Source: Bacillota bacterium
GTDB lineage: Bacteria > Bacillota > Bacilli > Bu12
Reading direction: 5' to 3'
Length of the DNA: 64,000 bases
Assembly: GCA_014896485.1 (NCBI GenBank)
Contig: JADBKH010000008.1
Location: 6,710 to 70,709 of the forward strand
Shown here: positions 1 through 61,829 of the stretch, piece after piece
Numbering within the stretch: position 1 is the stretch's first letter
Layout of the letters: every line of letters begins with the position of its first letter
The notes under the pieces: model-generated
Seen by the model: only the letters and a program-made list of their open reading frames with translations
The model's database searches: none
What the model was told of the DNA's origin: nothing
Position numbers and translations under genes: made by a program

Positions 1-29
1 TGATGCAGGCACAACTGCAAGTGCAATAG
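1..29 (+). CDS. 3' end of upstream gene, probably cytochrome ba3 oxidase subunit II (partial)
   Basis: Reads ...MQAQLQVQ* (TAG 27-29), resembling the terminal strand after the CuA-binding Met, directly upstream of subunit I. Only 8 codons are visible. Confidence 0.4.
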
Positions 30-67
30 ACGCCGAGAGAGACGGCGTTGGGAAAAGAGGGAGGATA

Positions 68-1771
68 TTGGCTGCTGTAGAAGTTCCATCCTCACGAGAG
101 GCACACCCTGAAAAGCAGGGAGGACCCTTTTCAAAACCGGATGCAAACTTGAGCTTGGCACATTTTATCGTCGTCTTTGTCGCACTCGTTCTGGGCGGTA
201 TCGCCGGTGCTTTGCAAGCAGAGGTTCGTTCCGGAACCTTAACCCTCCCGGCGGGAATCGACTATTATGCACTTCTAACCTTACATGGGGTCGTGATGGC
301 GCTCGTAGTGACCACCTATTTTATTGTAGGTTTTCTACTTGCATTCTCCGGTCACCTGCTGGGCGGTGAACTCAAACCAACACCCCGATTGCTCGGTTGG
401 ATTGGATTTATCGTCATGACCCTAGGAACTGCGATGGCCGCCATTGAAATTCTGCTCGGCAACGCTTCCGTGCTCTATACGTTTTACGCGCCGATGCAAG
501 CTTCCCCTTGGTTCTACGTCGGTGTTACCCTGCTCATTGTTGGCAGTTGGATCAGTGGCGCGGCGATCTTCGTTCAATACCATCTGTGGCGGAAAGAACA
601 CCCCGGCGAACGCTCACCTTTGGGTGCCTTTATGGCCGTCTGTACGTTTATTCTGTGGGACATCGCCACGTTGGGCGTAGCGATCGAGTCCCTCTTCCAG
701 CTGATACCCTGGTCTTTCGGCTTGACGAAAACCATCAACGTCGAACTCTCCCGGACTTTCTTCTGGTACTTTGGTCACCCGCTGGTCTACTTCTGGCTTT
801 TGCCGGCCTATATTGTCTGGTACACCGTCATTCCCAAGATTGTCGGAGGCAAAGTCTTCAGCGACACGCTGGCACGATTTGCCTTCCTGTTATTCATTCT
901 CTTCAGTGTGCCCGTTGGCTTTCACCATCAGTTAATGGATCCTGGCATCCAAAGTGGCTGGAAGTTTGTTCAAGTCGTGCTCACCATGATGGTCGTCATT
1001 CCTTCGCTGATGACTGCCTACGCGCTCTTTGCCACCTTTATCCGCGCAGGCAGGGCCAAAGGTCAGACCGGTTTTACTGGTTGGTTGAAGGCGATGCCTT
1101 GGGGAGACGTCCGTTTTCTGGCTCCCTTTATCGGTATGGTCGGCTTCATCTTTGGTGGTGCTGGTGGCATCATCAACGCCAGCAACCAGATGAATGCGAT
1201 GGTCCACAATACCCTGTGGGTGACCGGCCACTTCCACGAAACCTTGGCATTGACGGTTATCCTCACTTTCTTTGGGGCCAGCTACTGGCTGCTCCCCGCA
1301 CTCTCCGGACGCAAACTGACACCACAGATGAACAAGCTCGGCATCCTGCAGACGATCTTGTGGACGGTCGGTATGGTGATCATGAGTGGGGCCATGCATG
1401 CCGTCGGCCTGTTGGGAGCCCCACGTCGCACCTCGTATACGACCTACCAAAACAATCCTCTGGCCCAGACGTGGGTAGGCTATGAGCAGTGGATGGCCAT
1501 TGGTGGGATCATCCTCTTTATCGGGTTGGCCTTGATGGTCTACAACGCCTTCCGGATGATCTATGGGGCGCCCAAGGGATATACGGAGGTTCCCGTCGCT
1601 GATATCGAAGAGGAAGCCGGCACTCCCCCTGCCATCTTTGAGAAGTGGTGGTTGTGGATCGGCATTACGGTGGTGTTGGTGCTAATCGCGTACTTTGTCC
1701 CCGTGACACAAATGATTCAAAACGCAGGCCCCGGTTCGCCCGGCTTTAATACCTGGAACTTTGGCCGATAA
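68..1771 (+). CDS. cbaA: B-family (ba3-type) heme-copper terminal oxidase subunit I
   Basis: Polytopic membrane protein with LTLHGVVM, FWYFGHPLVYFW, GFHHQ, VTGHFH and GAPRR motifs; TTG start after GGAGG. Confidence 0.92.
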   Translation: MAAVEVPSSREAHPEKQGGPFSKPDANLSLAHFIVVFVALVLGGIAGALQAEVRSGTLTLPAGIDYYALLTLHGVVMALVVTTYFIVGFLLAFSGHLLGGELKPTPRLLGWIGFIVMTLGTAMAAIEILLGNASVLYTFYAPMQASPWFYVGVTLLIVGSWISGAAIFVQYHLWRKEHPGERSPLGAFMAVCTFILWDIATLGVAIESLFQLIPWSFGLTKTINVELSRTFFWYFGHPLVYFWLLPAYIVWYTVIPKIVGGKVFSDTLARFAFLLFILFSVPVGFHHQLMDPGIQSGWKFVQVVLTMMVVIPSLMTAYALFATFIRAGRAKGQTGFTGWLKAMPWGDVRFLAPFIGMVGFIFGGAGGIINASNQMNAMVHNTLWVTGHFHETLALTVILTFFGASYWLLPALSGRKLTPQMNKLGILQTILWTVGMVIMSGAMHAVGLLGAPRRTSYTTYQNNPLAQTWVGYEQWMAIGGIILFIGLALMVYNAFRMIYGAPKGYTEVPVADIEEEAGTPPAIFEKWWLWIGITVVLVLIAYFVPVTQMIQNAGPGSPGFNTWNFGR

Positions 1772-1785
1772 GCGACAGTTCTTTG

Positions 1786-1822
1786 GAAAAGGCATCGCGC
1801 CTTACGCGATGCCTTTCTATTT
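1786..1822 (+). terminator. Rho-independent terminator
   Basis: GAAAAGGCATCGCG / CGCGATGCCTTTC stem followed by TATTT. Confidence 0.8.
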
Positions 1823-1975
1823 GCCACTCTGTTCAGCAGATTGACCGATGGGTCAGGCGCCTCCTCCTACGGCACTGCCCGGAGGAGAAAGATCAGTATT
1901 ACCAACGATGCCAGCCAAAGCGAGCACGATTAGGATCTAATTGTACAAAAGCATTGTCAAAAAGGAGGTTGCACG

Positions 1976-3691
1976 ATGGCCAGCGATGAATACACGCGCT
2001 ATACCGAGACGTTAGATGCCTTGGGACATACACCATGGACAACCGTGTTACAAGGTGCTGGAAAACGTGTCGTACCCTCACGTGAACATGAGTGCTCTCA
2101 AGCACGGTGCGATCTCTGTTTCGATCGCTTCTGCGATTTTCGCGATGACATGCGTGCTCCTTGCGGACGCACAAAAGCCGACGCGGAAGCGCTTCTCCTG
2201 TTGCGCCGCATGCTGACAGCAGCAGGTACCGCACAACGGGGGGCGCTGCAAACGATCCAGGCGATCTTGCGTTCTCCCCAAAGCATCGAGGACACAGCTG
2301 TGGCCGATCTGCTCTCCCGGTTGCAGCCACTGACCACCGACGGAAGCCAGGAGAGCACCCTCTCTACGCAGCGACTGCTACGGCATTTGCTCCATGGCAT
2401 TCTAGGCGGTTACACGCAAGCAGAGGGACGATCCCTGTGGGCGCGGGTCTTGGCCGACCCAGAGAGTTTAAAGCGTCTGGACAAAACCGGAATGGTGCCC
2501 AAGCCGGCTTATACCCAGTTGATCGACGCGGCCGCACTCCTTTCACCCGGCAGTCTTCAAGACCGAGACGAGATTCAGCGTGCAGCCACGACAACCGCCC
2601 TCTCTGCGTTTTTTGATGGCTTGGCTGCCCAGGCCTTTTTGACGGAATTGCTCAAGTTCAAGACGCAAAAAAACACGTCTACACCGGTCGGATTGGCCAA
2701 TCTTCGTCCACAGACCCTCAATTTGGTGCTGTTGACCGACAATGCCGTGCAGGCAGCACGACTCATCGAAACAAGTTGGAAGGCCTCCGAGATCTTGGAA
2801 AATGCCAACGCCGAACAGATCGCATTCTTCGTTGCCGGAGACAATGGGGCACGTGTTGCAGCCAAACTGGGGATCCCATGGTTGGCCGATTACAATGCAG
2901 AAGTGCTGCTTCCCTTTGCAACCCTCGTTGACGGCATCATCGTCGGATCAGGGAATCATCCCCCAATGGTCGCCACCGCTGCACAGGTAGCCGAAGTCCC
3001 CTTGCTTCGATTGGGAGTTCCTGCATCTTGTGACGGCTTCTTTGAAGCGACTGTCACCCATTTTTCACGTCGGGTGCGCAGCAACACCCCAGCGCTTTCG
3101 GGTAAAGGAAACTTCGTCTTGCTGCGTGACTACCTGCGCCGTATCGAAGGTCGCCCCCGCATCGCCGCACGCCGGGCCACCGTCGATGCCATGCAGCAAG
3201 GTACGTTGCGTGGAATTGCGTTGGTCTATGCGGGACAGTTGGATGCCGGCCAACCCGAAGAAATCGAAACGCTCTTGCGCACCCTTCACACCCAGGGGCT
3301 CTTGCCCATCGTTGCTGGCGCAGTCGCCTTGCCAGCGGCACTGGCCGGATGGACCGACGAGCACGAAGCGACGGCATTGCTCCCCTTCCGCCGTTCCTTT
3401 GAAGATGCAACCGGCGTTCTGCTTCCACCTGTCATCGTCGCCGGCGGCGCAGCAGAACTGGCTGCAACCTATCTGTTACTGCAGCGGGAACGCCTGGTGC
3501 GCACCGATCCTTTGACGTTGCCAATCCGCTTTTTCCTGCCGACCCAATTCGATCCAGTAGGCGAACTGATGGCCATTTCGTTGGCGGCTTTGGGCTGTGA
3601 AGTCACTGTCGCGCAGCAACCCGACTGGCAAATCCGTCTTTTCGAAACAGGGACAGGCGAGCCTGCACAAATGGAGAAGGGATCGACATGA
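1976..3691 (+). CDS. Divergent Ni-CO dehydrogenase (CooS)/HCP-superfamily homolog lacking C-cluster ligands (putative pseudo-enzyme, Fe-S protein)
   Basis: AGGAGG RBS. C45-x2-C48-x4-C53-x9-C63-G matches the CooS B-cluster spacing. Collinear blocks GMVP, LNLVLLTDN, LGIP, VDGIIV, FSRR, GTLRGIALV and LPPVIVAG match CooS by eye. Confidence 0.7.
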   Translation: MASDEYTRYTETLDALGHTPWTTVLQGAGKRVVPSREHECSQARCDLCFDRFCDFRDDMRAPCGRTKADAEALLLLRRMLTAAGTAQRGALQTIQAILRSPQSIEDTAVADLLSRLQPLTTDGSQESTLSTQRLLRHLLHGILGGYTQAEGRSLWARVLADPESLKRLDKTGMVPKPAYTQLIDAAALLSPGSLQDRDEIQRAATTTALSAFFDGLAAQAFLTELLKFKTQKNTSTPVGLANLRPQTLNLVLLTDNAVQAARLIETSWKASEILENANAEQIAFFVAGDNGARVAAKLGIPWLADYNAEVLLPFATLVDGIIVGSGNHPPMVATAAQVAEVPLLRLGVPASCDGFFEATVTHFSRRVRSNTPALSGKGNFVLLRDYLRRIEGRPRIAARRATVDAMQQGTLRGIALVYAGQLDAGQPEEIETLLRTLHTQGLLPIVAGAVALPAALAGWTDEHEATALLPFRRSFEDATGVLLPPVIVAGGAAELAATYLLLQRERLVRTDPLTLPIRFFLPTQFDPVGELMAISLAALGCEVTVAQQPDWQIRLFETGTGEPAQMEKGST

Positions 3692-4341
3692 CCGTCGAAG
3701 AGATCATGGCACGCCAACTCATCACCATTTCGCCCCAAGCAACGCTGGATGAAGCCATTCGGCTCATGTATGCACATCGCATCCGCCACTTGCCGGTAGT
3801 AGATGCCCAGGGAGCATTGGCCGGCATCCTTTCTGACCGGGATGTGCGGACCTTCGTCGGAACGGCCTACCTGTCCGGCGAGCATTGTCTGACGGAAAAC
3901 GATCATGTCGCAGATGCCATGACATCGGAGGTGGTGACCACTACGCGTGATACGTTCGTCGAGGAGGCAGCCCGCGTCATGATCGAGCGCCGCATCGACA
4001 GCCTACCTGTTGTCGAAGGAAAACAGCTTCTTGGCCTGATTACCGATACTGACTTGCTGAAAACCCTCATTGCTTGGACGGGCGTCCTGCATCCCAGCTC
4101 CCGCGTGGAGATCGAGGTGGATGACAGTGCCGCAGCCCTGGCGGAACTCTTGAAGATTTTTGCAGCGCATCGGCTCAATATCGACAGCCTCATGATGGTG
4201 GGGTATACACCTGCAGGCAAACGCCGATTGGTCGTACGCTTTACGGCGCTCAACTACCTCCCCATTGTTCAAGAAATTCGCACCAAAGGGATGAAAGTGT
4301 TTACGGGCCTGCCTGGCGAAGAGATCGCCGACACGCCTTAG
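3688..4341 (+). CDS. CBS-pair plus ACT domain protein (AcuB-like)
   Basis: Two CBS repeats (IRHLPVVD..GILSDRD; IDSLPVVE..GLITDTD) plus a C-terminal ACT-like segment; ATGA overlap with the upstream gene. Confidence 0.88.
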   Translation: MTVEEIMARQLITISPQATLDEAIRLMYAHRIRHLPVVDAQGALAGILSDRDVRTFVGTAYLSGEHCLTENDHVADAMTSEVVTTTRDTFVEEAARVMIERRIDSLPVVEGKQLLGLITDTDLLKTLIAWTGVLHPSSRVEIEVDDSAAALAELLKIFAAHRLNIDSLMMVGYTPAGKRRLVVRFTALNYLPIVQEIRTKGMKVFTGLPGEEIADTP

Positions 4342-4371
4342 GGAGGATTTACCTCATTCCTTTAAGCTGGC

Positions 4372-4395
4372 AGCGCCCTTTCCGGCGCTTTTTTC
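4372..4395 (+). terminator. Rho-independent terminator
   Basis: AGCGCC-ctttcc-GGCGCT followed by a T run. Confidence 0.6.
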
Positions 4396-4602
4396 ATGGC
4401 CTCCTCCTCAGGGAGGCGCTTGATCCAAAGGGTTCATGAGCTAAGCATCCTGGTCCCAAACGACTAGGCCTCTATTTGTAAGAAGCCGGATTTCAAAAAT
4501 ACGTCGTTCACGCGATATCCCCTCCGTTCCTCCAAGTTTAGGATGAGGACGATGCGAAACGGCGAACCCGTTTACGCAGATTACCGAAAGCAGAGGTGAA
4601 AA

Positions 4603-5556
4603 GTGATGTGGGCACCAGAGCCTGCTTTTGTGGAACGTGAGAGCCATCCATCCCAGCGCTTCTCACTGCATTTTACACCGCAGCGGGAGTGGCACTTGTG
4701 GCATGCGCTGTGGTTTTGGGCCATGGGCATTGGCAGCGGTGTCTTTCTGCTTCGCCAGTTCTTCGCCCTCGAACAGACAGGCACCCTTTTGGGAATGGAT
4801 TGGCCCGACATTTTGGGTATCGTCTTTGTGGCCATCGGCGGACTGATCCTGATCCTCGATTTGGGCAAGCCACAGCGTGTTTTCAATGCGCTGCTGCAAC
4901 CCAAGCATTCCTGGATCAGCCGGGGTGCCATTGCCGACTTCACCTTCCTATTCTTTGGGGCGTTGTACACGTTGGCGGGTTGGTTCTCTCTTCCCTGGAG
5001 TCCAGCGACCTTCGTCCATGCGGATTTGGTCAGCCAGATTTTTATCGCAATCTGCACGTTAACCGCCTTCGTGATCATGCTTTATCCGGGTTTTGTCCTC
5101 TACGAGTCGCTGGCCATCCCGTTTTGGAATTCTGTCTTGGTCCCTGCCCTCTTTTTCGAGCTGGCCATCACATCGGGATTCGGCCTGCTGTTGGTGACCA
5201 TGGCCGCCACGGGTACGTTGACGGCAGCTGTCCTCACCCCTCTGGCCACGGCGACATTGATTGCCAATGTGGTCACACTGCTCACCGTCGTCCTCTATCT
5301 GTTCGATCGATATAAGTCACCGCGTCCGGCTGCACGGGTTGGACTCCAGCGTCTGCTGACCGGGAAGATAGCACCGTTTTTTTGGGCGACAGCTGTACTC
5401 GGCCTGATCGCTCCCGTGGTACTGACAGCACTGGCGCTTGCCGGTGTTGCGACTGTCCCCTTGCTCGTGGCAGGAGGTGTGTTGGCCATTTTGGGAAGCT
5501 TTGGCTTTCGCTATGTCCAGCTGCTGTCGGGGGTACGGCAGACCGCCGTCCTCTAA
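4603..5556 (+). CDS. NrfD/PsrC-family membrane anchor subunit of a molybdoenzyme complex
   Basis: About 8 hydrophobic segments; LDLGKPQR, SWISRG, YPGFVL, IPFWN and terminal FRY motifs. Confidence 0.85.
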   Translation: MMWAPEPAFVERESHPSQRFSLHFTPQREWHLWHALWFWAMGIGSGVFLLRQFFALEQTGTLLGMDWPDILGIVFVAIGGLILILDLGKPQRVFNALLQPKHSWISRGAIADFTFLFFGALYTLAGWFSLPWSPATFVHADLVSQIFIAICTLTAFVIMLYPGFVLYESLAIPFWNSVLVPALFFELAITSGFGLLLVTMAATGTLTAAVLTPLATATLIANVVTLLTVVLYLFDRYKSPRPAARVGLQRLLTGKIAPFFWATAVLGLIAPVVLTALALAGVATVPLLVAGGVLAILGSFGFRYVQLLSGVRQTAVL

Positions 5557-5587
5557 ATGGTTCAAAGAATGTTGGAGGTGAAGGATC

Positions 5588-8087
5588 ATGCCGATCACCG
5601 TTGATACACCCGAAGGGAAAGAAACCCTTTACTATAGCGCTTGCACGCCCAACTGCTGGATGAATTGTCGGTTGTATGCCCATGTGCGCGACGGCAAATT
5701 GGTCCAAACGTCGGCAGCCCCCTTTCCAGACAGCCGCTACAACCGGATTTGCCTACGTGGCCTCTCCCATCCCCAGCGCGTCTACAGCAAGGAACGCTTG
5801 ACCAAGCCGTTGCTCCGTGTCGGCAAGCGTGGGGAAAACAAGTGGAAAGAGATCTCCTGGGATGAAGCATTCACCCTCATGGCCAACAAACTGTCAGAGA
5901 TCAAAGAAAAATACGGCAGCCAAGCGGTCCTCTTTGCACCCTTGTCGGGCAACTATGCCATCTTAAATGGATCGCTGGCCGGTGCCACGCACCGCATGGC
6001 CAACATCTTCGGAGGCACCCTGGCCTGCGATAGCATCGATTTGGCCCTGGCAACCGGAGAATCCCAGGTTGTCGCCAACCTGGGATCGGGGATGACTTCC
6101 TGGTTTTTGGGGCACCAGCCGGAAGATATCGCCAATGCCAGGACGATCGTGGCATGGGGCACCAATGTAACCGAGTCCCAGGTACACAACTGGCACTTTT
6201 TCGCAGATGCACTGGAGAAGGGCGCCACCCTGATTTGCATCGACCCGCGTTACTCAGAAACCGCAGAAAAGGCGCACTACTGGCTGCGTCCTCGCCCCGG
6301 CTCCGACGCGGCGCTGGCGATGTCGATGATCGATGTGGTCATCGAAGAAAACCTCTATGACCGATCCTATGTGATCGATCACACCGTCGGGCCCTTCTTG
6401 GTGCGCAGTGACAACGGCAAGTTCCTGCGTCGCAACGATCTCGACCCAGATGGCGATGGATCAAACCTCGTCTTTGACGAAAAGAGCCAATCTTTCGTCC
6501 CTGTGGATACCGGAGAGATTGCGCCCGCGCTCTTTGGCAGCTTTGAAGCCCACTTGGCTGACGGTACGACCATCCAGGTACGCCCAGCCTTCCAGCTGTT
6601 AGCGGATCAAGCGGCAGCCTATACCCCCGAGCAGGCCGAAGCGATCACATCGGTCCGGCCGGACCTGGTTCGCGAGGTAACCCGCATCTATGTGCAAAAC
6701 GGCCCTGCTTTCGTCTATTCCGGCATGGGCATCGACCGCGGGACAATGCTGACATGGTCGGCCGGGCCATCGCGACACCGGGCGTCATCACCCACCAGAT
6801 CGGCAGTTCGGTGCAACACCCTTGCGCTTTGATGGGCGGTCCGCTATTGGCGTCGAGTTTACGCCTGGTATTCTCGATGCGTAATCATGCCCACGGGCCA
6901 AAGCCACTGCACGGCTCAACTTCCTGTTGACCTACGATGCCATTACCAAAGGGAAGATCAAAACCTGGGTCCCCAAAGATCCGAGCAATCCCATGGCTGG
7001 ACCGCGCAGTAAAGAGCCCGAAGAGGTCCCTTACACGATCAAGGCGGCCATCTTCTCTTGCGCCAATTTTGCCAGCAACTTCCCCAATCAGAATCGCATT
7101 CTCAACGAGATCTTCGATGAGAAGAACCTCGAGTTTGTCGTCGATCTGGAAATGTTCATGAACGATACGGCGCGTATGTGCGATCTGGTCTTGCCCATCA
7201 CCTCCTGGTTTGAGAACGACGACATCGTCGGCGGCATGCATCCATTCATGATGCGCCAGGAGCGGGCCATTGATCCCATTGGAGAATGCAAGTCCGACTT
7301 TGAAATCTATAAGGGACTCTCTGAGAAGTTGGGGCTGAGCCAATATTGGGTGAAGACCCCTCAAGCTTTCATCGATGAGATCATCCACAATATCGCCCAA
7401 GCCCTGCAAAATCCGCAGATCGAGGAAGATTTCAAACGGGATGGCGTGGCCCGGCTGATGCCTCCTGCCCTGATCCCGTTACAGGATGGCAAGTACATGA
7501 CTCCTTCAGGAAGGGCCGAATTCTATGCGGAAGGGGTCGTTGTCAACTGGCCGGCCATCCAGCCTTCTTTCCGTTTGCCGGTGGACATGGGCTTTGCCCC
7601 CCTGCCACACTTTGAGCCGCCCTATGAGGCTTGGCACGAGAATCCGAAGTTTGCCCAATATCCCTTGGTCTTAAACCAGCGCCACTCGCGTTTCCGCGTA
7701 CACACCACTTATTACAACGTACCTGTGCTACGCGAGATGGATCCGGAGCCATTGGTCGAGATGAACGAGCATGAGATGGCCCGGCGCGGTCTTAGAGACG
7801 GCGATATTGTCCGGGTCTACAACGACCGGGGCCAGGCCGTTTTGAAAGTCCGTACCAATAATGCTTACCCCGATCACACGTGCAACATCAACAAGGGGTG
7901 GCAACGGCACCAGTTTATCGCCGGTGGCTATCAGGAGCTGACAACCGAACATGTCAACTACCGGCATTACAACTGCTCGTTCTTCGATGTGTTGGTCGAA
8001 GTGGAACCCTGGAATCCAGAAAAAGTGCCGCCCCGTTCCATCGAAGAGCACGATGGCAAAGCCCATATCGTGAAAGGAGGCGTTTGA
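5588..8087 (+). pseudogene. DMSO-reductase-family Mo/W-bis-PGD catalytic subunit, interrupted by frameshifts at about 6740-6926 (pseudogene or sequence error)
   Basis: The N part (5588-6832) has CTPNCWMNC...ICLRG, ISWDEA, WGTN, IDPRYSETA and RPGSDAAL. The C part (6927-8087) has DLVLP..SWFE, KSDFEI, TPSGRAEFY, HTTY and VRVYNDRG. The two parts are in different frames. Confidence 0.85.
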
Positions 8088-8088
8088 A

Positions 8089-8838
8089 ATGGCTGTCGCC
8101 GAAACAGAACAAAAGCCGATCGTCATCTCGCCCAAACCGGACCACATTCCCCACTGGGGCATGGTGATCGACTTAAACCGCTGTATCGGCTGCGAGACAT
8201 GCGCGGTAGGTTGCAAAATCAAGAACAATCTAGCCGACGGCGTTTGGTGGAATCGGGTGCTGACCATAGGGGGCGATGGCCTCGACGTGGCAGACGGAAG
8301 CGTGGAGCAGCCGCGCGCCTATGCCCTTCCTCTCTCTTGCCAGCACTGCGAGAATGCACCTTGTCTGAAAGTTTGCCCGACAGGCGCCACGTATCGTACG
8401 GCCGACGGCCTGGTGCTGATCGACTACAACAAATGCATCGGATGCCGTGCCTGCATCCAAGCTTGCCCCTACGGGGTGCGTATCTTTAACGAAGAACAGC
8501 CCAAGCACGAATATACTGACTTCGACTTGGGTGCAGCAGAAGCGTTGCCACACGAGCAAGGCGTCGTGGAAAAGTGCACGTTCTGCGCTGACCGCCTCGA
8601 ACAGGGACTAGACCCGTTCTGCGTCGATGTTTGCCCAGCGCGTGCCCGCTTCTTCGGTGACTTAAACGACCCTGACTCTGAGGTCTCGCAGCTCATCGAA
8701 GAACGCCACGCCGAGACACTGCACCCAGAGCTTGGAACCAAGCCCAGCGTCTATTACATTCCCCCGGAAAAGGTGCGGACGCACCCGACGGGGTTGGATC
8801 GGCTCCAGCTCAATGCTGCTGACGTAGTCCACGAATAA
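8089..8838 (+). CDS. 4Fe-4S dicluster electron-transfer subunit (DmsB/NrfC/PsrB-like)
   Basis: CIGCETCAVGC, CQHCENAPCLKVCP, CIGCRACIQACPY, KCTFC..PFCVDVCP and GTKPSVYY motifs. Confidence 0.92.
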   Translation: MAVAETEQKPIVISPKPDHIPHWGMVIDLNRCIGCETCAVGCKIKNNLADGVWWNRVLTIGGDGLDVADGSVEQPRAYALPLSCQHCENAPCLKVCPTGATYRTADGLVLIDYNKCIGCRACIQACPYGVRIFNEEQPKHEYTDFDLGAAEALPHEQGVVEKCTFCADRLEQGLDPFCVDVCPARARFFGDLNDPDSEVSQLIEERHAETLHPELGTKPSVYYIPPEKVRTHPTGLDRLQLNAADVVHE

Positions 8839-8863
8839 GTCTCGACTTACGTTCCATTTGTAC

Positions 8864-8891
8864 AAGGCCCCTGCATACGGGGGGCCTTTTT
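8864..8891 (+). terminator. Rho-independent terminator
   Basis: AAGGCCCC / GGGGCCTT stem followed by a T run. Confidence 0.8.
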
Positions 8892-9040
8892 GTCCTATCT
8901 TCACCTTTCTATTGTAGGAAGGTCAGGCTAAGTAGACAACCCGTTTCGGCAGAAAAGTGTAGCGCAAAAATACGACAGAAACTGGATATCAAACGCATCG
9001 GGAATGGTTACACTGGGTATGCAAAGGATGTTTGTGAAAG

Positions 9041-11074
9041 GTGATGAGTGCGATGGCTGGTCGATGGATCCGCTGGCTACATCTGCGTCAGCCTCCCAAA
9101 GAAAAGGGCCAAGAATATGACCGTCGCGAAGCAGCTGCGATCTACGCAGCTGGCGGAGATGCTTCGGCTGCGAGTGAGCAGGAAGGTCGCTTTGAAGGTT
9201 TTCGTCGGTTTCCCGCCCATCCTTCTGCTACGGAAGGAAACCGGGCTACCAACCAAGCACCGACCCTCGGCGCGCTTGCTGTCGACTTGACCCGTGTGGC
9301 CGAAGAAGGCAGACTCGATCCAATCATCGGTCGCGACAAAGAAATCGCACGCGTCGCCCTGATTCTGTCGCGCCGCTCAAAGAACAACCCTGTACTCATC
9401 GGCGAACCAGGCGTCGGCAAGACAGCCATTGCCGAAGGACTGGCCCAGCGCCTGGCCTCGGGAGATGTGCCCCAGCCGCTGCTTGGAAGGCGGCTGTGGG
9501 CGCTGGACATGGGGCGCCTGGTCGCCAACACCCGTTATCGCGGGGACTTTGAAGGTCGTATGGAAAAACTGCTCACTGAATTGCGCAACAATCCAGAGGT
9601 CATCCTCTTTATCGATGAACTGCACACGGTCGTCAATACAGGCGGGACAGAAGGAGCCGTCAGTGCCTCTGACATCTTAAAACCGGCTCTTTCCCGCGGA
9701 GAAGTGCAGTGCATCGGAGCGACGACCCCAGACGAATACCAGAAATATATTGAAAAAGATGCTGCACTGGCACGGCGTTTCCAACCCGTCCGCGTGGCAG
9801 AACCCGATGTGGCCGCGACACGCCAGATTGCTGCCGGCATGGCCGTGGAGTTGGCACGCTACCACGGCGTTCATATCGAGGCACAGGCGATCGAAGCAGC
9901 TGTTCACCTTTCCCAGCGTTACTTGCCCGATCGCAACCAACCGGATAAAACGTTGGACCTTCTGGATGAGGCCGGCGCACTCGCCCGTCTTTCCTCGGAT
10001 GGAAGCCATCAGCCCGTTGTCAATGAGGAGACGGTAGCCTATGTCCTCGCCGATTGGACGGGCATCCCCGTGGCCAAATTGACCGAAAACGAAGCCGAAC
10101 GCCTGATGCATCTGGAAGCGCGCTTGCATCAGCGCGTCATCGGCCAAAACGAGGCGGTCTCCGCCGTCGCGACCGCCATTCGGCGGGCTCGTGCCGGATT
10201 GAAGGATCCCAATCGGCCGATCGGCTCCTTCCTTTTTCTCGGGCCTTCAGGCGTCGGCAAGACAGAGCTGGCCAAAGCGTTGGCAGAAGCGCTCTTTGGC
10301 GACGAGAAGGCACTGGTCCGCATCGACATGTCCGAGTATGAAGAAAAATTCTCTGCTTCACGCTTGGTCGGCGCACCTCCCGGCTACGTCGGCTACGAAG
10401 AAGGGGGACAGTTGACCGAAGCGGTCCGACGGCACCCCTATTCGGTGCTTCTGTTGGATGAGATTGAAAAAGCCCACACCGACGTGCTGAACACCTTGCT
10501 GCAAGTGCTCGAAGACGGTCGCCTCACCGACGGACGCGGTCGCGTCGCCGATTTCCGAAACATTGTGATCATCATGACGTCCAACGTCGGCGCAACCGAA
10601 ATGGCAACCGTCGCCACCGGCTTTCTGGAAAGCCAACGCGACCCCGATCTTTCTGTAGCCGAACGCACCTTGGATGCGCTGAAACGCCAGTTTCGTCCGG
10701 AGTTTCTCAATCGTGTCGATGGCTGGATTGTTTTCCACCGTCCCACGCTGGCAGAGATTTACGCAATTGCAGATCTGATGCTCCAGCAGCTTGCACAGCG
10801 GCTCCGCAGTGCTGGGTATCGGTTTACCTACACGCAGCAGGTGCGCGACTATCTCGCCCAGCTCGGTTACAGTCCCGCCTATGGAGCCCGTCCTTTGCGC
10901 CGCACCATCGAACAGCAGATTGAAAATCGCTTGGCCGAGGCGGTGATCTGCGGTGATCTCAAACCAGGGAATGAAGTCATGGCCGTACTTGAAGCAGGGA
11001 CCATCCAGTTCCGCTTCACACCCACACAAACAGGGCAAAGGGTGGCAAGCCTTGCTGCCGTAGGTGTAGAATAA
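9041..11074 (+). CDS. Class I Clp/Hsp100 AAA+ ATPase lacking Clp-N repeats and middle domain
   Basis: Two Walker A motifs ([16 protein letters not shown]), [30 protein letters not shown] and YGARPLRR. Confidence 0.9.
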
Positions 11075-11088
11075 CGCATCGACCATAT

Positions 11089-11175
11089 GCGCCGAGGGGT
11101 GCCCAATCATTGGGCTGAGAGCGGAATTCCGCAACCCTAGAACCTGATCTGGGTCATACCAGCGGAGGAACGGCA
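11089..11175 (+). ncRNA. TPP riboswitch
   Basis: GGGGTGCCC...GGGCTGAGA...ACCCTAGAACCTGATCTGGGTCATACCAGCGGAGGAA, directly upstream of thiD. Confidence 0.95.
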
Positions 11176-11180
11176 GACCA

Positions 11181-11214
11181 AAGCAGGACCGTTTCCTACG
11201 GTCCTGCTTCTTTT
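11181..11214 (+). terminator. Riboswitch-controlled terminator
   Basis: AAGCAGGACCG / CGGTCCTGCTT stem followed by CTTTT. Confidence 0.85.
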
Positions 11215-11233
11215 CGTAAAAAGGGAGGTTCCG

Positions 11234-12067
11234 ATGCCACCAAACGACAAGATTCCCCGTACGTTGACCATCGCCGGGTCCGATAGTGGAGGAGGCGCTG
11301 GCATCGAAGCCGATCTGCGCACCTTTGCACTGCTGCACTGCTTTGGCATGGCCGCAGTCACGGCGGTTACGGCCCAAGACACACGGGAAGTCTACCGCAG
11401 CTTGCCGATTGATGGGGAGATGGTCTCCGCACAAATCCAAGCCGTTGCAGAGGATATCGGTATCGATGCGGCAAAGACCGGCATGCTTGGCACAGCTGAG
11501 ACAGTCGACGCTGTCGCCGACACCCTTGCCTCTTCTGGGCCGCTTCCCCTGGTCGTCGATCCGGTCATGGTGGCCAAGGGCGGTGCCCAGCTGTTGGATC
11601 CCCCGGCAGTGGCACGCCTGCGGCAACGACTGCTCCCATTGGCGGAAGTGGTGACCCCCAATCTTCCGGAAGCCGAGGCGCTGGCCAACCGTCCCATCCA
11701 GACCGATGAAGACCGTATCGATGCTGCAAAAGAAATCGCGGCCTATGGGGCCCACTATGTCGTCATCAAGGGAGGCCATGCATCGGGAGAGCGTGCAGAC
11801 GATCTGGTGTACCACGACGGTACGATCACCTGGCTTTCTGCACCGCGCTTGGGGACACGCAACACCCATGGGACCGGATGTACCTTCTCCGCAGCGATCA
11901 CAGCCGGTCTAGCCTGGGGCCTTTCCGTAGAAGATGCACTGACTGCCGCCAAACGCTACATCACAGCTGCCATCGCTCAAGGCCTACCGTTGGGACATGG
12001 ACATGGTCCGACCAACGGTTGGGCTGGTGCAGCCGCATGGCAGGAAGGAGATACATTCCATGGATGA
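11234..12067 (+). CDS. thiD: Hydroxymethylpyrimidine/phosphomethylpyrimidine kinase
   Basis: IAGSDSGGGAGIEAD, KTGML, DPVM, TPNLPEA and HGTGC motifs. Confidence 0.95.
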   Translation: MPPNDKIPRTLTIAGSDSGGGAGIEADLRTFALLHCFGMAAVTAVTAQDTREVYRSLPIDGEMVSAQIQAVAEDIGIDAAKTGMLGTAETVDAVADTLASSGPLPLVVDPVMVAKGGAQLLDPPAVARLRQRLLPLAEVVTPNLPEAEALANRPIQTDEDRIDAAKEIAAYGAHYVVIKGGHASGERADDLVYHDGTITWLSAPRLGTRNTHGTGCTFSAAITAGLAWGLSVEDALTAAKRYITAAIAQGLPLGHGHGPTNGWAGAAAWQEGDTFHG

Positions 12068-12899
12068 TACCCTTCGGGAAAATGGCGCTGCGATCCGAGA
12101 ACAGATCATCGAACAAAACCCGTTGATCCATCACATCACCAACCTCGTTGTCACCCACAGCACGGCCAATGCTACGTTGGCCTGGGGCGCTTCTCCAGTG
12201 ATGGCCGATGCTCCTGAAGAAGTTGCGGAGATGACTAGCGCCGCGCAAGCATTGGTCCTCAACATCGGCACACTCACTTCGTCGACGTTGGCTGCAATGC
12301 GTTTGGCCGCTGCTGCTGCCACCACTGCACACATCCCCATCGTTTTAGATCCAGTAGGAGCTGGTGCTACCGTTTTTCGCACCCAAGCCGCACAGCGTTT
12401 GGCCTACGAAGCCCATCCCCAGGTTATTCGCGGCAATGCAGGCGAAATCGCGGCGTTGTGTGACAGAGAGCACCAGACACGTGGCGTCGACACGGTTGGG
12501 GAAGTGTCCCTTTCCAACCGCATCGACCTCGCCCAAGAAGCGGCCCGGCGTCTGCATACGGTCGTCGCCCTAACCGGTGCCACCGACGTGATCACCGATG
12601 CAGACCGCATCCTGCTGGTCGAAAACGGCCATCCATTGCTCACCCGCCTCACGGGCACAGGCTGCATGGCGACAACAGCTGTCGCCTGTTTTTTGGCCAC
12701 AGGCGCAGAGCCCCTGCTCGCTGCCGCTGCAGCACTGGGCGCTTACGGACTGGCCGCTGAACAGGCCGCTGCGACGGCAACCGGTCCGGGAAGTTTCGCC
12801 ATCGCACTGCTCGATCGCATCGCGGCACTCGATACACCGGCACTCCGCGCTGGCTTACGCATTCGGGATGCATCGAGTGAGGAAGGCGAGTCGATATGA
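12060..12899 (+). CDS. thiM: Hydroxyethylthiazole kinase
   Basis: PLIHHITN, GASPVMA, NIGT, LDPVGAG and TGTGC motifs; ATG 12060 overlaps the thiD stop. Confidence 0.95.
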   Translation: MDDTLRENGAAIREQIIEQNPLIHHITNLVVTHSTANATLAWGASPVMADAPEEVAEMTSAAQALVLNIGTLTSSTLAAMRLAAAAATTAHIPIVLDPVGAGATVFRTQAAQRLAYEAHPQVIRGNAGEIAALCDREHQTRGVDTVGEVSLSNRIDLAQEAARRLHTVVALTGATDVITDADRILLVENGHPLLTRLTGTGCMATTAVACFLATGAEPLLAAAAALGAYGLAAEQAAATATGPGSFAIALLDRIAALDTPALRAGLRIRDASSEEGESI

Positions 12900-13570
12900 G
12901 CCTTCCCAGGGATGAATTGGCTCAGCGACTACGCCTCTATGTGGTGACCGATGCTACGTTGGCACGCGGACGCAGCGATCTGGAGATAGTCGAAGCGGCG
13001 ATATCCGGGGGAGCAACCGCCATCCAACTGCGTCACAAGACAGCAGAGGATCGCGCACGCTATGAAGAAGCGGTCGCTCTGGCAAGGTATTGTCGCAAAC
13101 GAGATGTCCTTTTTTTCGTCGATGATCGTGTAGACATCGCCTTGGCATCCGGCGCAGACGGCGTGCATTTGGGCCAAAGCGATCTCCCCCTCCCTGCTGC
13201 CCGGCAAATCGCCGAATCTCGGCTACTCATCGGCATCTCTGCCGAAACGCCCCAACAAGCTCGTCAAGCGGCAGACGGCGCTGCCGATTATATCGGCGCA
13301 GGGACGGTCTTTCCGACATTGACCAAATCGGACGCAGGTACGCCCATTGGCATCCGTGGATTGGCCGCGATCACCCAAGCCGTCGACCTGCCGGTGGTCG
13401 CGATCGGGGGAATCCAAATCCAAAACATCGCGCAAGTGGTCTCGACCGGTGTCTGTGGCGTCGCAGTCGTCTCTGCGGTCGTGGCTGCTGAAAAACCAGA
13501 AGCAGCAGCACGTGCATTGCGCGATGCATTGGACCGGGCATTGGGAAACCAATTCCCCTCCGACAGGTAA
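12896..13570 (+). CDS. thiE: Thiamine-phosphate synthase
   Basis: LYVVTD, QLRHK, DGVHLGQSD, PTLTK and VAIGGI motifs. Confidence 0.95.
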   Translation: MSLPRDELAQRLRLYVVTDATLARGRSDLEIVEAAISGGATAIQLRHKTAEDRARYEEAVALARYCRKRDVLFFVDDRVDIALASGADGVHLGQSDLPLPAARQIAESRLLIGISAETPQQARQAADGAADYIGAGTVFPTLTKSDAGTPIGIRGLAAITQAVDLPVVAIGGIQIQNIAQVVSTGVCGVAVVSAVVAAEKPEAAARALRDALDRALGNQFPSDR

Positions 13571-13665
13571 GCGGCAGATGCCCTTCAACCTGCCGCACAA
13601 AGCAGGTATACTGCAGCAAAACCCCAAGGGTGGTCAGACCCTTTTCAAAAGAGGGATGGGTTGCA

Positions 13666-14277
13666 ATGAACTTTTTTGAACTTGCCGAAAGACGACGCTC
13701 GATCGGGAAGGTGACAGATCGTCCCGTTCCGCAAGTGCTGATCGAACATTTGCTACATGCAGCCATCCAAGCACCGAATCACCACCTCACCCAACCTTGG
13801 CGTTTCTTTATCTTGCAGGGCGAAGCCCGAAAACGCTTGGGTACCTGCATGGCCGAAGCAGCTCGGCAACGCGCCGATACTGCCGAAAAAGAGGAGGCCT
13901 ACTTTCAACGGGAAGCGGAGAAACCCATGCGCGCACCGCTGTTGATCACCGTCGCCTCGGTCAGTGATCGCGACGATCCGCTCCGCATCCACGAAGATCA
14001 ACTTGCTACAGCAGCAGCAGTCGAAAACCTACTGTTGGCCGCAACCGAAGCCGGACTGGCTGCCCAGTGGCGCACCGGCAAACCTGCTTACGACGATCAC
14101 GTCAAAGCTTTCTTTGGATTGCGCCCCCAGGACAGCATCATCGCCTTCCTCTATATTGGCTACGCTGCAATCGACCCACCGCCCAGAGAACGCATTCCTT
14201 GGCAGGCCGTTTCGTTTCTCCCAGACAGCACCAATGGCTGGCAGCCGCTCCAGCCACCCCATACCCCCACCTCGTAA
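13666..14277 (+). CDS. Nitroreductase family protein (YdjA-like)
   Basis: RRSI, APNHHLTQPWRF, ENLLLAA and WRTG motifs. Confidence 0.88.
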   Translation: MNFFELAERRRSIGKVTDRPVPQVLIEHLLHAAIQAPNHHLTQPWRFFILQGEARKRLGTCMAEAARQRADTAEKEEAYFQREAEKPMRAPLLITVASVSDRDDPLRIHEDQLATAAAVENLLLAATEAGLAAQWRTGKPAYDDHVKAFFGLRPQDSIIAFLYIGYAAIDPPPRERIPWQAVSFLPDSTNGWQPLQPPHTPTS

Positions 14278-37732: not shown

Positions 37733-37807
37733 TGGTGGGCGCTGTAGGGATTGAACCTACGACCTCTTCCGCGTCAAGGAAGCGCTCTCCCACTGAGCTA
37801 AGCGCCC
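37733..37807 (-). tRNA. tRNA-Val(GAC)
   Basis: Cloverleaf GGGCGCT...CTTCC-TTGACGC-GGAAG...GGTTCAATCC...ACCA. Confidence 0.96.
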
Positions 37808-55802: not shown

Positions 55803-55886
55803 TGCCGGGAGCGGGGCTTGAACCCGCACGCCCTTTCGGGCAAAGGATTTTAAGTCCTCCGCGTCTGCCGATTCCGCCACCCCGGC
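55803..55886 (-). tRNA. tRNA-Leu(TAA)
   Basis: GCCGGGG..., anticodon arm GAGGA-CTTAAAA-TCCTT, long variable arm; CCA not encoded. Confidence 0.95.
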
Positions 55887-56117
55887 GCAGCAGGCTCAGG
55901 GTAGCACAGAGACGGCGCAACCGCAACCATCTCGATGCATCACGATAGATCAACCACAGGAATTTCTGCAACACATCTTGTCTCAAAAATAACGGCCCCC
56001 TCTCGTTTAGAAGTGACCGTTATTACAGAAGCGGTTTTTGCTGGTTTGCAGGAGCAACGGTTTTTACACCACACTTGCTGCCCCTGCTTTAAGTCAGAAA
56101 CCGCTTGGTTTTATGTA

Positions 56118-56193
56118 TGGAGGTGGGAACGGGATTCGAACCCGTGAATCGCGGTTTTGCAGACCGCTGCGTTAGCCACTTCGCCATCCCACC
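56118..56193 (-). tRNA. tRNA-Cys(GCA)
   Basis: Anticodon arm GCGGT-CTGCAAA-ACCGC; U73 followed by CCA. Confidence 0.95.
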
Positions 56194-56197
56194 GCGA

Positions 56198-56274
56198 TGG
56201 CGGAGCCAACGGGATTCGAACCCGTGTTCTCCTGCGTGACAGGCAGGCGTGTTGGGCCTCTACACCATGGCTCC
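56198..56274 (-). tRNA. tRNA-Asp(GTC)
   Basis: Anticodon arm CCTGC-CTGTCAC-GCAGG; GCCA end. Confidence 0.95.
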
Positions 56275-56283
56275 ACAGGTTAC

Positions 56284-56538: not shown

Positions 56539-56610
56539 CGTTACACCCCATTCCATTATGGGTTTTATCTTGCCGCATCTTATGCTAGAGGAAAAGGGGC
56601 GCGTGCCCCC

Positions 56611-57336: not shown

Positions 57337-57535
57337 TGAGAACCTCCGATTCCCCTGCCTCTCAGTCTAACCATCCGCGCCCCTTGCGATGCTTGCGATG
57401 GGGTACAGCCAAAGACGGCCTCCCTCACCCGTGTGGACGGCAAACAGTGGAAATAAAAATAAAAGTGTAAAAATATATTGAAGGGGTAAGGCAACCCTTT
57501 TCGAGGAGAACGTAGCTTTAAAAGAAGAGACCCTC

Positions 57536-61825: not shown

Positions 61826-61829
61826 GCAT

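What the first reader, a model, noticed from the sequence alone, without database searches (positions are those of the whole stretch)
1976..4395. Pseudo-CODH plus CBS-ACT protein form a self-contained two-gene module inside a respiratory neighbourhood
Seen: ATGA overlap at 3688-3691, terminators on both sides (1786-1822, 4372-4395), and a position between a ba3 oxidase and a Mo-enzyme operon. Established: CBS pairs bind adenyl nucleotides and ACT domains bind small ligands. AcuB-type proteins usually sit with acuA/acuC/acsA, none of which is here. Inference: a post-translational sensor pair that integrates redox state (Fe-S) and energy charge (CBS), possibly gating the switch between microaerobic and anaerobic respiration.
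Basis: partly seen in the sequence, partly recalled or inferred. Interest (0 to 1): 0.75.

Follow-up and report, generated by a model that had tools for sequence, protein, structure and literature searches.

The report
Dead CO-dehydrogenase gene coupled to AcuB
A two-gene unit pairs a CO-dehydrogenase look-alike that has lost its catalytic metal site with this bacterium's only AcuB energy-sensor protein, which in related bacteria sits beside the enzymes it controls.

Summary
ORF A (1976-3691, 571 aa) and ORF B (3688-4341, 217 aa) overlap by ATGA and lie between two hairpins. A ba3-type oxidase lies upstream and an NrfD/Mo/Fe-S operon downstream.

ORF A has a full-length Ni-CODH fold (Atlas TM 0.87; Foldseek E 3e-19). 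It keeps only a CX2CX4CX9C motif, read as the B-cluster. All six C-cluster ligands and both D-cluster cysteines are gone. It misses every family cut-off. Among 1.84 billion representative proteins it has one real relative (89% identical).

ORF B is an AcuB-family protein (E 4.5e-35 to solved AcuB) and the genome's only one. Papers from 2026 show AcuB to be an adenine-nucleotide/Ap4A sensor that inhibits the deacetylase AcuC. In 29 of 29 relatives' loci examined, acuB is followed directly by acuC. Here acuC, acsA and the acuA-like genes lie on other contigs.

The pair recurs on the one relative's contig. ORF B has diverged in step with AcuC, so it probably still controls AcuC. Whether the dead CODH binds AcuB is unproven; the complex prediction gave no answer. 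A role in switching respiration has no support. New variant of known kinds; moderate interest.

The parts
1788..1816 (+). Perfect 12-bp hairpin after the oxidase subunit I gene. It is the likely terminator that sets the pair apart from the oxidase operon.
   Evidence: arms 1788-1799 / 1805-1816, 100% complementary. (T-rich tail). In the relative's contigs the only indels here fall in the loop (1800, 1804). Not listed by the terminator scan.
1962..1968 (+). Shine-Dalgarno-like AAGGAGG, 7 nt before the ATG of ORF A.
   Evidence: Read.
1976..3691 (+). ORF A (P0001, 571 aa): CODH-fold protein without C- and D-cluster ligands ('pseudo-CODH').
   Evidence: Codon usage matches the neighbours (cosine 0.93, against 0.67-0.71 out of frame).
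2108..2164 (+). Codons for C45-X2-C48-X4-C53-X9-C63, the only cysteine motif kept. Read as the [4Fe-4S] B-cluster site.
   Evidence: Conserved in P0003. Three HMM alignments start at residue 45. phmmer pairs P-C63-G with the I-C-G of CODH-IV. MAFFT places these cysteines differently, so the assignment is the better-supported of two.
2810..3025 (+). Residues 279-350: a 72-residue stretch identical in the two known members. It covers the positions that hold C-cluster Cys295 and Cys333 in CODH-II numbering (recalled), here D289 and N327.
   Evidence: 197 of 20000 shuffles give a run this long. for the positions.
3673..3682 (+). Purine-rich GGAGAAGGGA inside the end of ORF A; likely ribosome-binding site of ORF B.
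   Evidence: Read.
3688..3691 (+). ATGA: the start of ORF B overlaps the stop of ORF A (translational-coupling geometry).
   Evidence: The relative's proteins end in ...GSA and begin MTV..., which is compatible with the same overlap. Its DNA was not read letter by letter.
3688..4341 (+). ORF B (P0002, 217 aa): AcuB-family Bateman (CBS-CBS) plus ACT protein, the only one in the genome.
4372..4395 (+). G+C-rich hairpin (AGCGCC...GGCGCT) followed by TTTTTT; likely terminator of the pair.

Best explanation
The locus is a two-gene operon, made from one promoter region and ended by its own terminator.

Gene 1 encodes a protein with the whole Ni,Fe-CODH fold that cannot be a CO dehydrogenase. Every ligand of the catalytic C-cluster and of the dimer-bridging D-cluster has been replaced. 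Only the four cysteines that fit the [4Fe-4S] B-cluster remain. It is a pseudo-enzyme that most likely still carries one Fe-S cluster.

Gene 2 is the organism's single AcuB. This is a dimeric adaptor whose Bateman domain reads AMP/ADP/ATP (and Ap4A) and whose ACT domain docks on a partner protein. Its nucleotide-binding residues are kept, and it has diverged in step with the unlinked AcuC deacetylase. It therefore most likely still inhibits AcuC according to adenylate state, and so still acts on acetylation of AcsA and other targets.

The new feature is that acuB has left acuA and acuC and is now translated in a fixed ratio with the pseudo-CODH. My reading, which is inference and not shown, is that the pseudo-CODH is a second binding partner of AcuB. 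It would add a redox or Fe-S-integrity input, for example by holding or releasing AcuB.

Shown: gene structure, fold, loss of ligands, AcuB membership, dispersal of the acu genes, recurrence of the pair in one relative, purifying selection.

Inferred: Fe-S occupancy, AcuC control in this organism, and any contact between the two proteins (my odds about 0.4).
For: Structure of the unit: ATGA overlap, ribosome-binding sites and flanking hairpins.

Fold and family of ORF A:
- The Atlas's own model has pTM 0.81 and TM 0.87 to a CODH cluster over residues 1-571.
- My AF2 model has pLDDT 64, and all top 50 Foldseek PDB hits listed are Ni-CODHs, best E 3e-19.
- 0 of 6 C-cluster ligands and 0 of 2 D-cluster cysteines are kept in a 16-row alignment.
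- CX2CX4CX9C is kept in both members.

ORF A is a live gene:
- 61 differences in 571 residues and no gap against P0003, while the relative's DNA differs at about 1596 places in 14 kb.
- Identical runs at 279-350 (197 of 20000 shuffles) and 41-92.
- Native codon usage.

AcuB membership of ORF B:
- E 4.5e-35 over residues 3-210 to G. stearothermophilus AcuB.
- 42 of 53 columns conserved in 38 other AcuBs are kept, including R33, H34, R51, T119 and D122.
- It is the only such gene in the genome.

Detachment of acuB:
- acuB is followed by acuC in 29 of 29 relatives' loci examined and preceded by a 209-275-aa ORF in 28 of 29. One of these ORFs was checked and is a GNAT.
- In this genome acuC stands alone on C28, acsA is on C4, and the acuA-like genes are on C48 and C12.

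The pair recurs: P0003 (89%) and P0125 (92%) sit on one 10,096-bp contig with the Mo and Fe-S genes.

AcuB tracks AcuC: the mean residual of AcuB identity on AcuC identity is -0.9 for this genome, against a residual sd of 5.6 among relatives.

AcuB mode of action: PMC13121692 (abstract, section 8) and PMC13039410 (abstract, section 8).
Against: - No direct evidence that the two proteins touch.
- Only one relative is known and it is close (89-92%). Its synteny could be inheritance rather than selection.
- Four-base overlaps are common between operon genes that do not form complexes.
- AcuB's divergence in step with AcuC is fully explained without any role for the pseudo-CODH.
- The B-cluster assignment rests on spacing and HMM alignments; MAFFT aligns the cysteines otherwise. 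The N-terminal 60 residues are poorly modelled (pLDDT below 50).
- Several AcuB positions differ from the family: P87, invariant in 38 of 38 others, is R here. T187A, P190Y and Y202M change the ACT stretch that contacts AcuC in G. thermodenitrificans. AcuC control is therefore not certain either.
- No expression data.
Confidence: 0.45

Rival explanations
1. Adjacency without partnership. The break-up of the acuABC operon in this lineage happened to leave acuB behind an unrelated gene. AcuB works only on AcuC. The pseudo-CODH has a separate role of its own, for example a small electron-transfer or Fe-S-carrying protein.
For: - AcuB divergence is exactly that expected from AcuC divergence.
- AcuC, AcsA and AcuA-like genes are all kept in the genome.
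- All three acu genes are dispersed, not only acuB, which speaks for general rearrangement.
- The nearest distant CODH-like protein (P0123, Neomoorella stamsii) sits in a CooF / FNOR / Mo-oxidoreductase cluster with no CBS protein.
Against: - The ATGA overlap and private terminators make the two a single expression unit.
- Two lineage-specific novelties, an orphan pseudo-CODH and a detached acuB, coincide at one spot.
- AcuB residues 119-198 (linker and ACT domain) are identical in the two members.
Confidence: 0.33
2. One reading: the pair senses redox state and energy charge and gates the switch between the oxidase (microaerobic) and the Mo-enzyme (anaerobic) respiration encoded on either side.
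For: - Position between oxidase subunits II/I and an NrfD/Mo/Fe-S operon.
- The order pseudo-CODH, acuB, Mo subunit, Fe-S subunit recurs on the relative's contig.
- AcuB is an energy-charge sensor (PMC13121692 abstract).
Against: - Hairpins separate the pair from both operons.
- Neither protein has a DNA-binding or kinase domain.
- The known AcuB output is inhibition of a deacetylase, not control of respiration (PMC13039410 abstract).
- A palindrome upstream (TTGACCgatgGGTCA, about 1841-1855) is not enriched in the genome: 42 matches against 49 for the control.
- Synteny in one close relative says little.
Confidence: 0.08
3. The old active-site pocket has been rebuilt for a new ligand or metal. 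The positions of the C-cluster ligands now carry Thr/Asp/Asn, Asp, Asn(-His), Gly/Gln, Ala and Ala, and the region around two of them is the most conserved part of the protein. The protein would then be a new sensor or enzyme rather than an inert scaffold.
For: - Replacement residues.
- Residues 279-350 are identical in both members (197 of 20000 shuffles reach this).
- Precedent for repurposed CODH scaffolds with weak or no CO activity: clade B RfCODH (PMC13592312 abstract) and clade D ChCODH-V, as quoted in passages of 10.1101/2025.09.14.676152.
Against: - Only two sequences, so conservation has little power.
- Three of the six positions are now Gly or Ala, which bind nothing.
Confidence: 0.1
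4. ORF A is a decaying relic of a CODH gene with no function.
For: - Loss of all catalytic ligands.
- It changes faster than its neighbours: 89% identity, against 92% (AcuB), 93-96% (Mo subunit) and 98% (Fe-S subunit) between the same two organisms.
- The C-terminal roughly 60 residues of CODH are missing.
Against: - Same length, no gap and no stop in two lineages whose DNA differs at roughly one place in nine.
- Long invariant runs.
- Native codon usage in frame only.
- A strong ribosome-binding site.
Confidence: 0.04

Closest known systems
Ni,Fe carbon monoxide dehydrogenase catalytic subunit (CooS/AcsA; Pfam PF03063 Prismane, NCBIfam TIGR01702), e.g. C. hydrogenoformans CODH-IV (6elq) and D. 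vulgaris CODH (6ond)
   Same: Whole-length fold: TM 0.87 to a CODH cluster; Foldseek E 3e-19 with 540-598 aligned columns. N-terminal CX2CX4C...C motif of the B-cluster.
   Different: - 16-18% identity.
- Below every family cut-off.
- No C-cluster ligand (0 of 6) and no D-cluster cysteine.
- The catalytic Lys column is not kept.
- The C-terminal roughly 60 residues are absent.
- No other Prismane-family gene was found in the genome. Accessory genes were not searched.
Non-canonical CODH clades with altered active sites (clade B RfCODH; clades C, D and G of Inoue et al. 2019)
   Same: [quoted passage not shown] Active-site motifs are not conserved in clades C, D, G and some A and B groups (PMC6344411, passages seen).
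   Different: In the table passage I saw (groups D-4 to G-1), each listed group still shows at least five of the six C-cluster ligands. Here none is left. Clade membership was not tested by a tree.
AcuB of Bacillus subtilis / Geobacillus (PDB 9s4w, 9s4v, 9qs7)
   Same: CBS-CBS-ACT architecture, length, and 39-41% identity to the best AcuB-named hits. Full-length alignment. Nucleotide-contact residues R33, H34 and R51. An AcuC gene is present in the genome.
   Different: - The gene is not in an acuA-acuB-acuC operon; instead it overlaps a pseudo-CODH gene.
- The invariant P87 is R.
- Changes in the ACT stretch R184-Y202 (T187A, M188L, P190Y, Y202M) and at the W206 column.
- Stem branch of 2.08 changes per site in the AcuB tree.
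P0123, a 472-aa Prismane-family protein of Neomoorella stamsii (best distant hit, E 1.7e-4)
   Same: A CODH-like protein that has lost part of the C-cluster ligands. It also lies next to a molybdopterin oxidoreductase and a 4Fe-4S protein.
   Different: It keeps the D- and B-cluster cysteines and some C-cluster cysteines. It scores 92.5 bits on Pfam Prismane. It sits between a CooF-like ferredoxin and an FNOR-type flavoprotein, with no CBS/ACT gene.

Membership tests
Ni,Fe-CODH catalytic subunit (TIGR01702 / PF03063) | Score at or above the curated family cut-off | tested here: not met
   TIGR01702 21.9 bits against 478. Pfam Prismane gave no hit at E 0.01 for P0001, 13.7 bits on the genome search against a cut-off of 27, and 18.2 bits for P0003.
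Ni,Fe-CODH catalytic subunit (TIGR01702 / PF03063) | CODH fold over the whole chain | tested here: met
   Atlas model: TM 0.87, 559 residues aligned. AF2 model with Foldseek: every hit listed (ranks 1-50) is a CODH, best E 3e-19, TMq 0.64. My AF2 alignment was seeded with CODHs; the Atlas model was not.
Ni,Fe-CODH catalytic subunit (TIGR01702 / PF03063) | C-cluster ligands (His261, Cys295, Cys333, Cys446, Cys476, Cys526; CODH-II numbering recalled, columns identified from motifs HGH, CCTG, VQC, GCNN, TGC, GSC in 13 canonical rows) | tested here: not met
   0 of 6 kept in P0001 and P0003: LLTDN, AGDNG, SGN, AGQ, AGA, GGA (same result).
Ni,Fe-CODH catalytic subunit (TIGR01702 / PF03063) | D-cluster cysteines at the dimer interface | tested here: not met
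   With C45 taken as the first B-cluster cysteine, the residue before it is R44 and no conserved Cys lies 8 residues upstream. C40 is Gly in P0003.
Ni,Fe-CODH catalytic subunit (TIGR01702 / PF03063) | B-cluster CX2CX4C...C motif | tested here: met
   C45, C48, C53 and C63 are kept in both members. HMM alignments begin at residue 45. PC63G is paired with ICG. The spacing to the fourth Cys is 9 rather than 13. MAFFT gives a different register. Actual cluster binding is not testable here.
AcuB (CBS-CBS-ACT adaptor of the acu system) | Bateman (two CBS) plus C-terminal ACT architecture, about 210-220 aa | tested here: met
   PF00571 112 bits in 2 stretches; ACT 16.7 bits, below the cut-off. Full-length alignment 3-210 to GsAcuB 3-211, E 4.5e-35.
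AcuB (CBS-CBS-ACT adaptor of the acu system) | Adenine-nucleotide contacts (BsAcuB Arg33, His34, Arg51, Lys120) | tested here: met
   R33, H34 and R51 are kept. Position 120 is D; it is E in 84% of 38 AcuBs and K in B. subtilis. Binding itself was not tested.
AcuB (CBS-CBS-ACT adaptor of the acu system) | Gene inside acuA-acuB-acuC, next to acsA | tested here: not met
   Relatives: acuC directly follows acuB in 29 of 29 loci examined. This genome: acuC on C28, acsA on C4, acuA-like genes on C48 and C12.
AcuB (CBS-CBS-ACT adaptor of the acu system) | Binds and inhibits AcuC through the ACT domain | not testable with these tools
   Indirect evidence only. An AcuC gene is present and AcuB and AcuC have co-diverged. 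Of the five GtAcuB contact residues named in PMC13039410 section 8, E4 and E92 are kept. D89 is T (as in 8 of 38 other AcuBs), M188 is L, and the W206 column is L.
Hybrid cluster protein (HCP, same Pfam family) | Closer to HCP than to CODH in sequence or fold | tested here: not met
   All sequence hits with E at or below 0.01 in PDB are CODHs. All Foldseek hits listed are CODHs. BLASTP best hits among 30 Prismane loci are CODH-IV-like rows, E 3e-7. Hybrid-cluster ligands were not examined.

The most novel reading that the evidence does not exclude
A CODH scaffold stripped of its catalytic and bridging clusters has become the redox-sensing subunit of an AcuB complex. One small operon would then couple Fe-S or redox state and adenylate or Ap4A state to protein lysine deacetylation by AcuC. 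That would be a new partner-switch built from a dead enzyme and an energy sensor, and the first AcuB known with a partner other than AcuC.
Probability: 0.25. Interest if true: 0.8.

Novelty: new variant of a known kind. Interest (0 to 1): 0.52.

Why it matters
CODHs are studied intensely as CO2-reduction catalysts. Recent work asks what the 'non-canonical' clades do. A member that has lost every catalytic ligand yet stays under selection is the extreme case of scaffold re-use, and it shows which parts of the fold matter without catalysis.

AcuB was only assigned a mechanism in 2026, as an AMP/Ap4A-dependent inhibitor of AcuC. A lineage in which acuB has left the acu operon and is co-translated with another protein gives a natural test of whether AcuB-type adaptors can take further partners.

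If instead the two are unrelated, the locus is simply an example of operon break-up in a deep-branching, small-genome member of its class. The pseudo-CODH then remains an orphan of unknown role.

Tried and rejected
- **Complex prediction** of P0001 with P0002 (alignments A2, A3): no answer, score 0.00, controls not run. This is no evidence either way.
- **AF2 of P0001 without an alignment** failed (pLDDT 36.6).
- **Word-based homologue search with the four-row alignment A1** at E 1e-5 returned only P0001 and P0003.
- **Search of 60 relatives of the same class with P0001:** none has it (1 of 61 genomes, the own one).
- **RNA evidence:** no RNA holder listed among the sequencing runs, so expression and co-transcription could not be examined.
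- **dN/dS:** the laid contigs of X2 cover the locus, but only 40 of about 1646 differences were printed, so it could not be computed.
- **Upstream regulatory site:** the palindrome TTGACCgatgGGTCA is not enriched in the genome (42 matches with up to 1 mismatch, against 49 for the reversed control). No sigma-70-like promoter was found in 1500-4800. No Rfam family lies in or beside the pair.
- **Horizontal transfer:** G+C (0.56-0.60) and codon usage match the neighbours, so recent transfer was rejected.
- **Accelerated evolution of AcuB after detachment:** rejected.
- **Earlier findings of this scan:** three look-ups, nothing returned.
- **Literature:** two full-text searches and passages of four CODH papers gave no CODH-like protein lacking all C-cluster ligands and none paired with AcuB. 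Supplements were closed, and the CODH surveys' supplementary tables might list such sequences.
Full report
**Observation**

The window holds two same-strand ORFs, 1976..3691 (571 aa, P0001) and 3688..4341 (217 aa, P0002). The stop of the first and the start of the second share ATGA at 3688-3691. AAGGAGG stands 7 nt before the first ATG, and a purine-rich GGAGAAGGGA stands before the second.

A perfect 12-bp hairpin (1788-1799 / 1805-1816) follows the oxidase subunit I gene. A G+C-rich hairpin with a T run (4372-4395) follows ORF B. The scan lists only the second hairpin. Terminator-like sites are just twice as common in this region as in shuffles (7 against 3.4), so each hairpin alone is modest evidence.

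Upstream lie an ECF sigma factor and a Gmad2-domain protein on the other strand, then oxidase subunits II and I. Downstream lie NrfD, a molybdopterin oxidoreductase, a four-cluster Fe-S subunit and a ClpB-like ATPase.

**ORF A is a CODH fold without a CODH active site**

Pfam finds nothing at E 0.01. NCBIfam's CODH model scores 21.9 bits against a cut-off of 478. phmmer against PDB finds only CODHs, the best at E 9e-5.

The fold is nevertheless complete:
- The ESM Atlas holds its own model (pTM 0.81), which aligns to a CODH cluster with TM 0.87 over 559 residues.
- An AF2 model built on a 16-row alignment (pLDDT 64, pTM 0.66) hits Ni-CODH structures only in the listed top 50. The best is E 3e-19, TMq 0.64, 16-17% identity. 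That alignment was seeded with CODHs, so the Atlas result is the independent one.

In the alignment with 13 canonical CODHs taken from genomes of the phylum, the six C-cluster ligand columns are all replaced:

| Canonical motif | P0001 / P0003 |
|---|---|
| HGH | TDN |
| CC | GD |
| QC | GN |
| GC | AG |
| GC | GA |
| SC | GA |

The numbering His261/Cys295/Cys333/Cys446/Cys476/Cys526 is recalled; the columns come from the alignment. The two D-cluster cysteines are absent, the catalytic Lys column is not kept, and about 60 C-terminal residues are missing.

What remains is C45-X2-C48-X4-C53-X9-C63, conserved in both members, while C40 is Gly in P0003. Three HMM alignments begin at residue 45, and phmmer pairs P-C63-G with the I-C-G of CODH-IV. 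This fits the B-cluster motif with a 4-residue shorter loop. MAFFT chooses another register, so I rate the B-cluster assignment as likely, not certain.

**ORF A is nearly an orphan but is a live gene**

The word-indexed search of 5.8 billion proteins found one relative, P0003, 89% identical. A full HMMER pass over 1.84 billion representatives added only two distant Prismane proteins, at E 1.7e-4 and 5.3e-4. None of 60 genomes of the same class has it. The own genome has no other Prismane-family gene.

P0001 and P0003 differ at 61 of 571 positions with no gap. Contigs of the relative's run differ from the window at about 1596 places in 14 kb. Under no constraint, that much DNA change would be expected to produce stops and indels; this is my rough inference, since dN/dS could not be computed.

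Differences are unevenly spread:
- Residues 279-350 are identical (197 of 20000 shuffles reach a run that long).
- Residues 41-92 are identical too.
- The last 21 residues carry 9 changes.

Codon usage matches the neighbours in frame only, and G+C is unremarkable. ORF A does change faster than the genes around it. Identity between the same two organisms is 89% for ORF A, 92% for ORF B, 93-96% for the Mo subunit and 98% for the Fe-S subunit.

**ORF B is the genome's AcuB**

It aligns over its whole length with solved AcuB structures (E 4.5e-35), and its best database hits are named AcuB or 'CBS and ACT domain-containing protein'.

Two 2026 papers give AcuB a mechanism:
- A scissor-shaped dimer whose Bateman domains bind adenine nucleotides and which, AMP-bound, inhibits the deacetylase AcuC (PMC13121692; abstract and section 8 read).
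- Ap4A binding to the CBS domain that strengthens inhibition, with the ACT domain as the AcuC-binding part (PMC13039410; abstract and section 8 read).

P0002 keeps R33, H34 and R51, and 42 of 53 columns that are at least 80% conserved in 38 other AcuBs.

It also departs from the family:
- P87, invariant in all 38 others, is R.
- In the ACT stretch that is protected by AcuC in G. thermodenitrificans (R184-Y202), T187, M188, P190 and Y202 are A, L, Y and M.
- The W206 column is L.

All 11 departures at the conserved columns are shared with P0125. In a tree of 40 AcuBs the P0002/P0125 pair sits inside the group from the same class, on a stem of 2.08 changes per site with weak placement (85/41).

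**The acu genes are dispersed here and only here**

P0002 is the only CBS-CBS-ACT gene in the genome; the two other matches are a CBS-only protein and an IMPDH-like frame. One AcuC-type deacetylase gene stands alone on contig C28. AcsA is on C4. AcuA-like GNAT genes lie at the edge of C48, followed by an enoyl-CoA hydratase on the other strand, and on C12.

Among 60 relatives of the class, 32 have an AcuB at E 1e-15. I examined the 29 best loci, one per genome; 8 further places, mostly second copies, had no locus and were not examined. In 29 of 29, an AcuC 42-51% identical to this genome's follows acuB directly. In 28 of 29, a 209-275-aa ORF precedes it. The one I checked is a GNAT.

**Does AcuB still serve AcuC?**

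Across 406 pairs of relatives, AcuB identity tracks AcuC identity (slope 0.95, residual sd 5.6). The 29 pairs involving this genome have a mean residual of -0.9. The long AcuB branch therefore reflects the depth of the lineage, not release from its old constraint. This is the main result against a change of function, and I weigh it fully.

**Is the pair a unit?**

P0003 and P0125 come from the same 10,096-bp contig. That contig also carries the Fe-S subunit and an unbroken 834-aa Mo subunit. The order pseudo-CODH, acuB, Mo operon is therefore shared.

The relative's contigs cover all 30 bins of window 1-14000. Their only indels at the upstream hairpin fall in its loop. Residues 119-198 of AcuB (linker and ACT) are identical in the two.

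With one close relative this shows persistence, not selection for adjacency. The complex prediction gave no answer, and no RNA run was available.

**Reading**

I take as established:
- a bicistronic unit;
- a dead CODH keeping one Fe-S motif;
- the genome's sole AcuB, detached from its usual operon.

I take as likely (about 0.7) that this AcuB still inhibits AcuC according to adenylate or Ap4A state.

I take as open (about 0.4) that the pseudo-CODH is a second partner of AcuB. Three things make it the best single story: the overlap, the private terminators, and the coincidence of two lineage-specific novelties at one spot. An accidental neighbourhood after operon break-up is nearly as good.

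Two further rivals are kept with low odds: a rebuilt ligand pocket, and a decaying relic.

**Comparison and novelty**

Known non-canonical CODHs (clades B, C, D, G) have altered but still largely cysteine-ligated C-clusters (PMC6344411, passages; PMC13592312, abstract; 10.1101/2025.09.14.676152, passages). I found none described with all ligands lost, and none paired with AcuB. Supplements were closed.

I file ORF A as a derivative of the CODH fold, not as a CODH. I file ORF B as an AcuB-family member in a non-canonical context. Overall this is a new variant of known kinds, seen so far in two closely related metagenomic lineages.

Noticed in passing
window 5588-8087: The molybdopterin oxidoreductase catalytic subunit is split into 414-aa and 386-aa ORFs. 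The relative has one 834-aa protein (93% and 96% identical to the halves). tblastn shows two frame changes and an in-frame stop within about 6740-6900. The same stretch is a hole or low-depth spot in the contigs of run X1 (6700-6961). It may therefore be an assembly fault rather than a broken gene.
   Followed up: partly
window 11085-11187: TPP riboswitch (76.1 bits, above the gathering score) just after the ClpB-like gene and before the ORF at 11234.
   Followed up: no
window 9041-11074: The ClpB-like AAA+ protein has only 677 aa. It matches the ClpB model in two stretches, below the family cut-off (830 against 1232 bits), so it appears to lack part of a full ClpB.
   Followed up: no
window 55803-62012: Ten tRNA genes on the minus strand in three groups (plus one at 37736-37807).
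   Followed up: no
L077 (Neomoorella stamsii NZ_PVXL01000031.1) 3530-9312: The best distant relative of ORF A is a 472-aa, partly degenerate CODH-like protein. It sits in a row of CooF-like ferredoxin, CODH-like protein, FNOR-type flavoprotein, molybdopterin oxidoreductase and 4Fe-4S protein. This is a second case of a degenerate CODH next to a Mo enzyme.
   Followed up: partly
G000 contigs C28:24679-25575, C48:14-418, C4:5054-6850, C12:91800-92324: The acu system is scattered. acuC stands alone between gltX and a transporter gene. One acuA-like gene is cut by a contig end. A second GNAT-like homologue follows an acyl-CoA synthetase-like gene on C12. The AcsA match on C4 contains one TAA by the genome search.
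   Followed up: partly
L002 4196-5840 (contig C64 upstream of the window): An ECF-type sigma factor and a 374-aa protein with a Gmad2 domain lie divergently upstream of the oxidase genes. This could be a sigma/anti-sigma pair controlling them.
   Followed up: no
G000 as a whole: The genome (2.17 Mb, 65 contigs, 96% complete) has no relative closer than 'same class' among the 60 nearest genomes offered. It represents a deep, sparsely sampled lineage.
   Followed up: no
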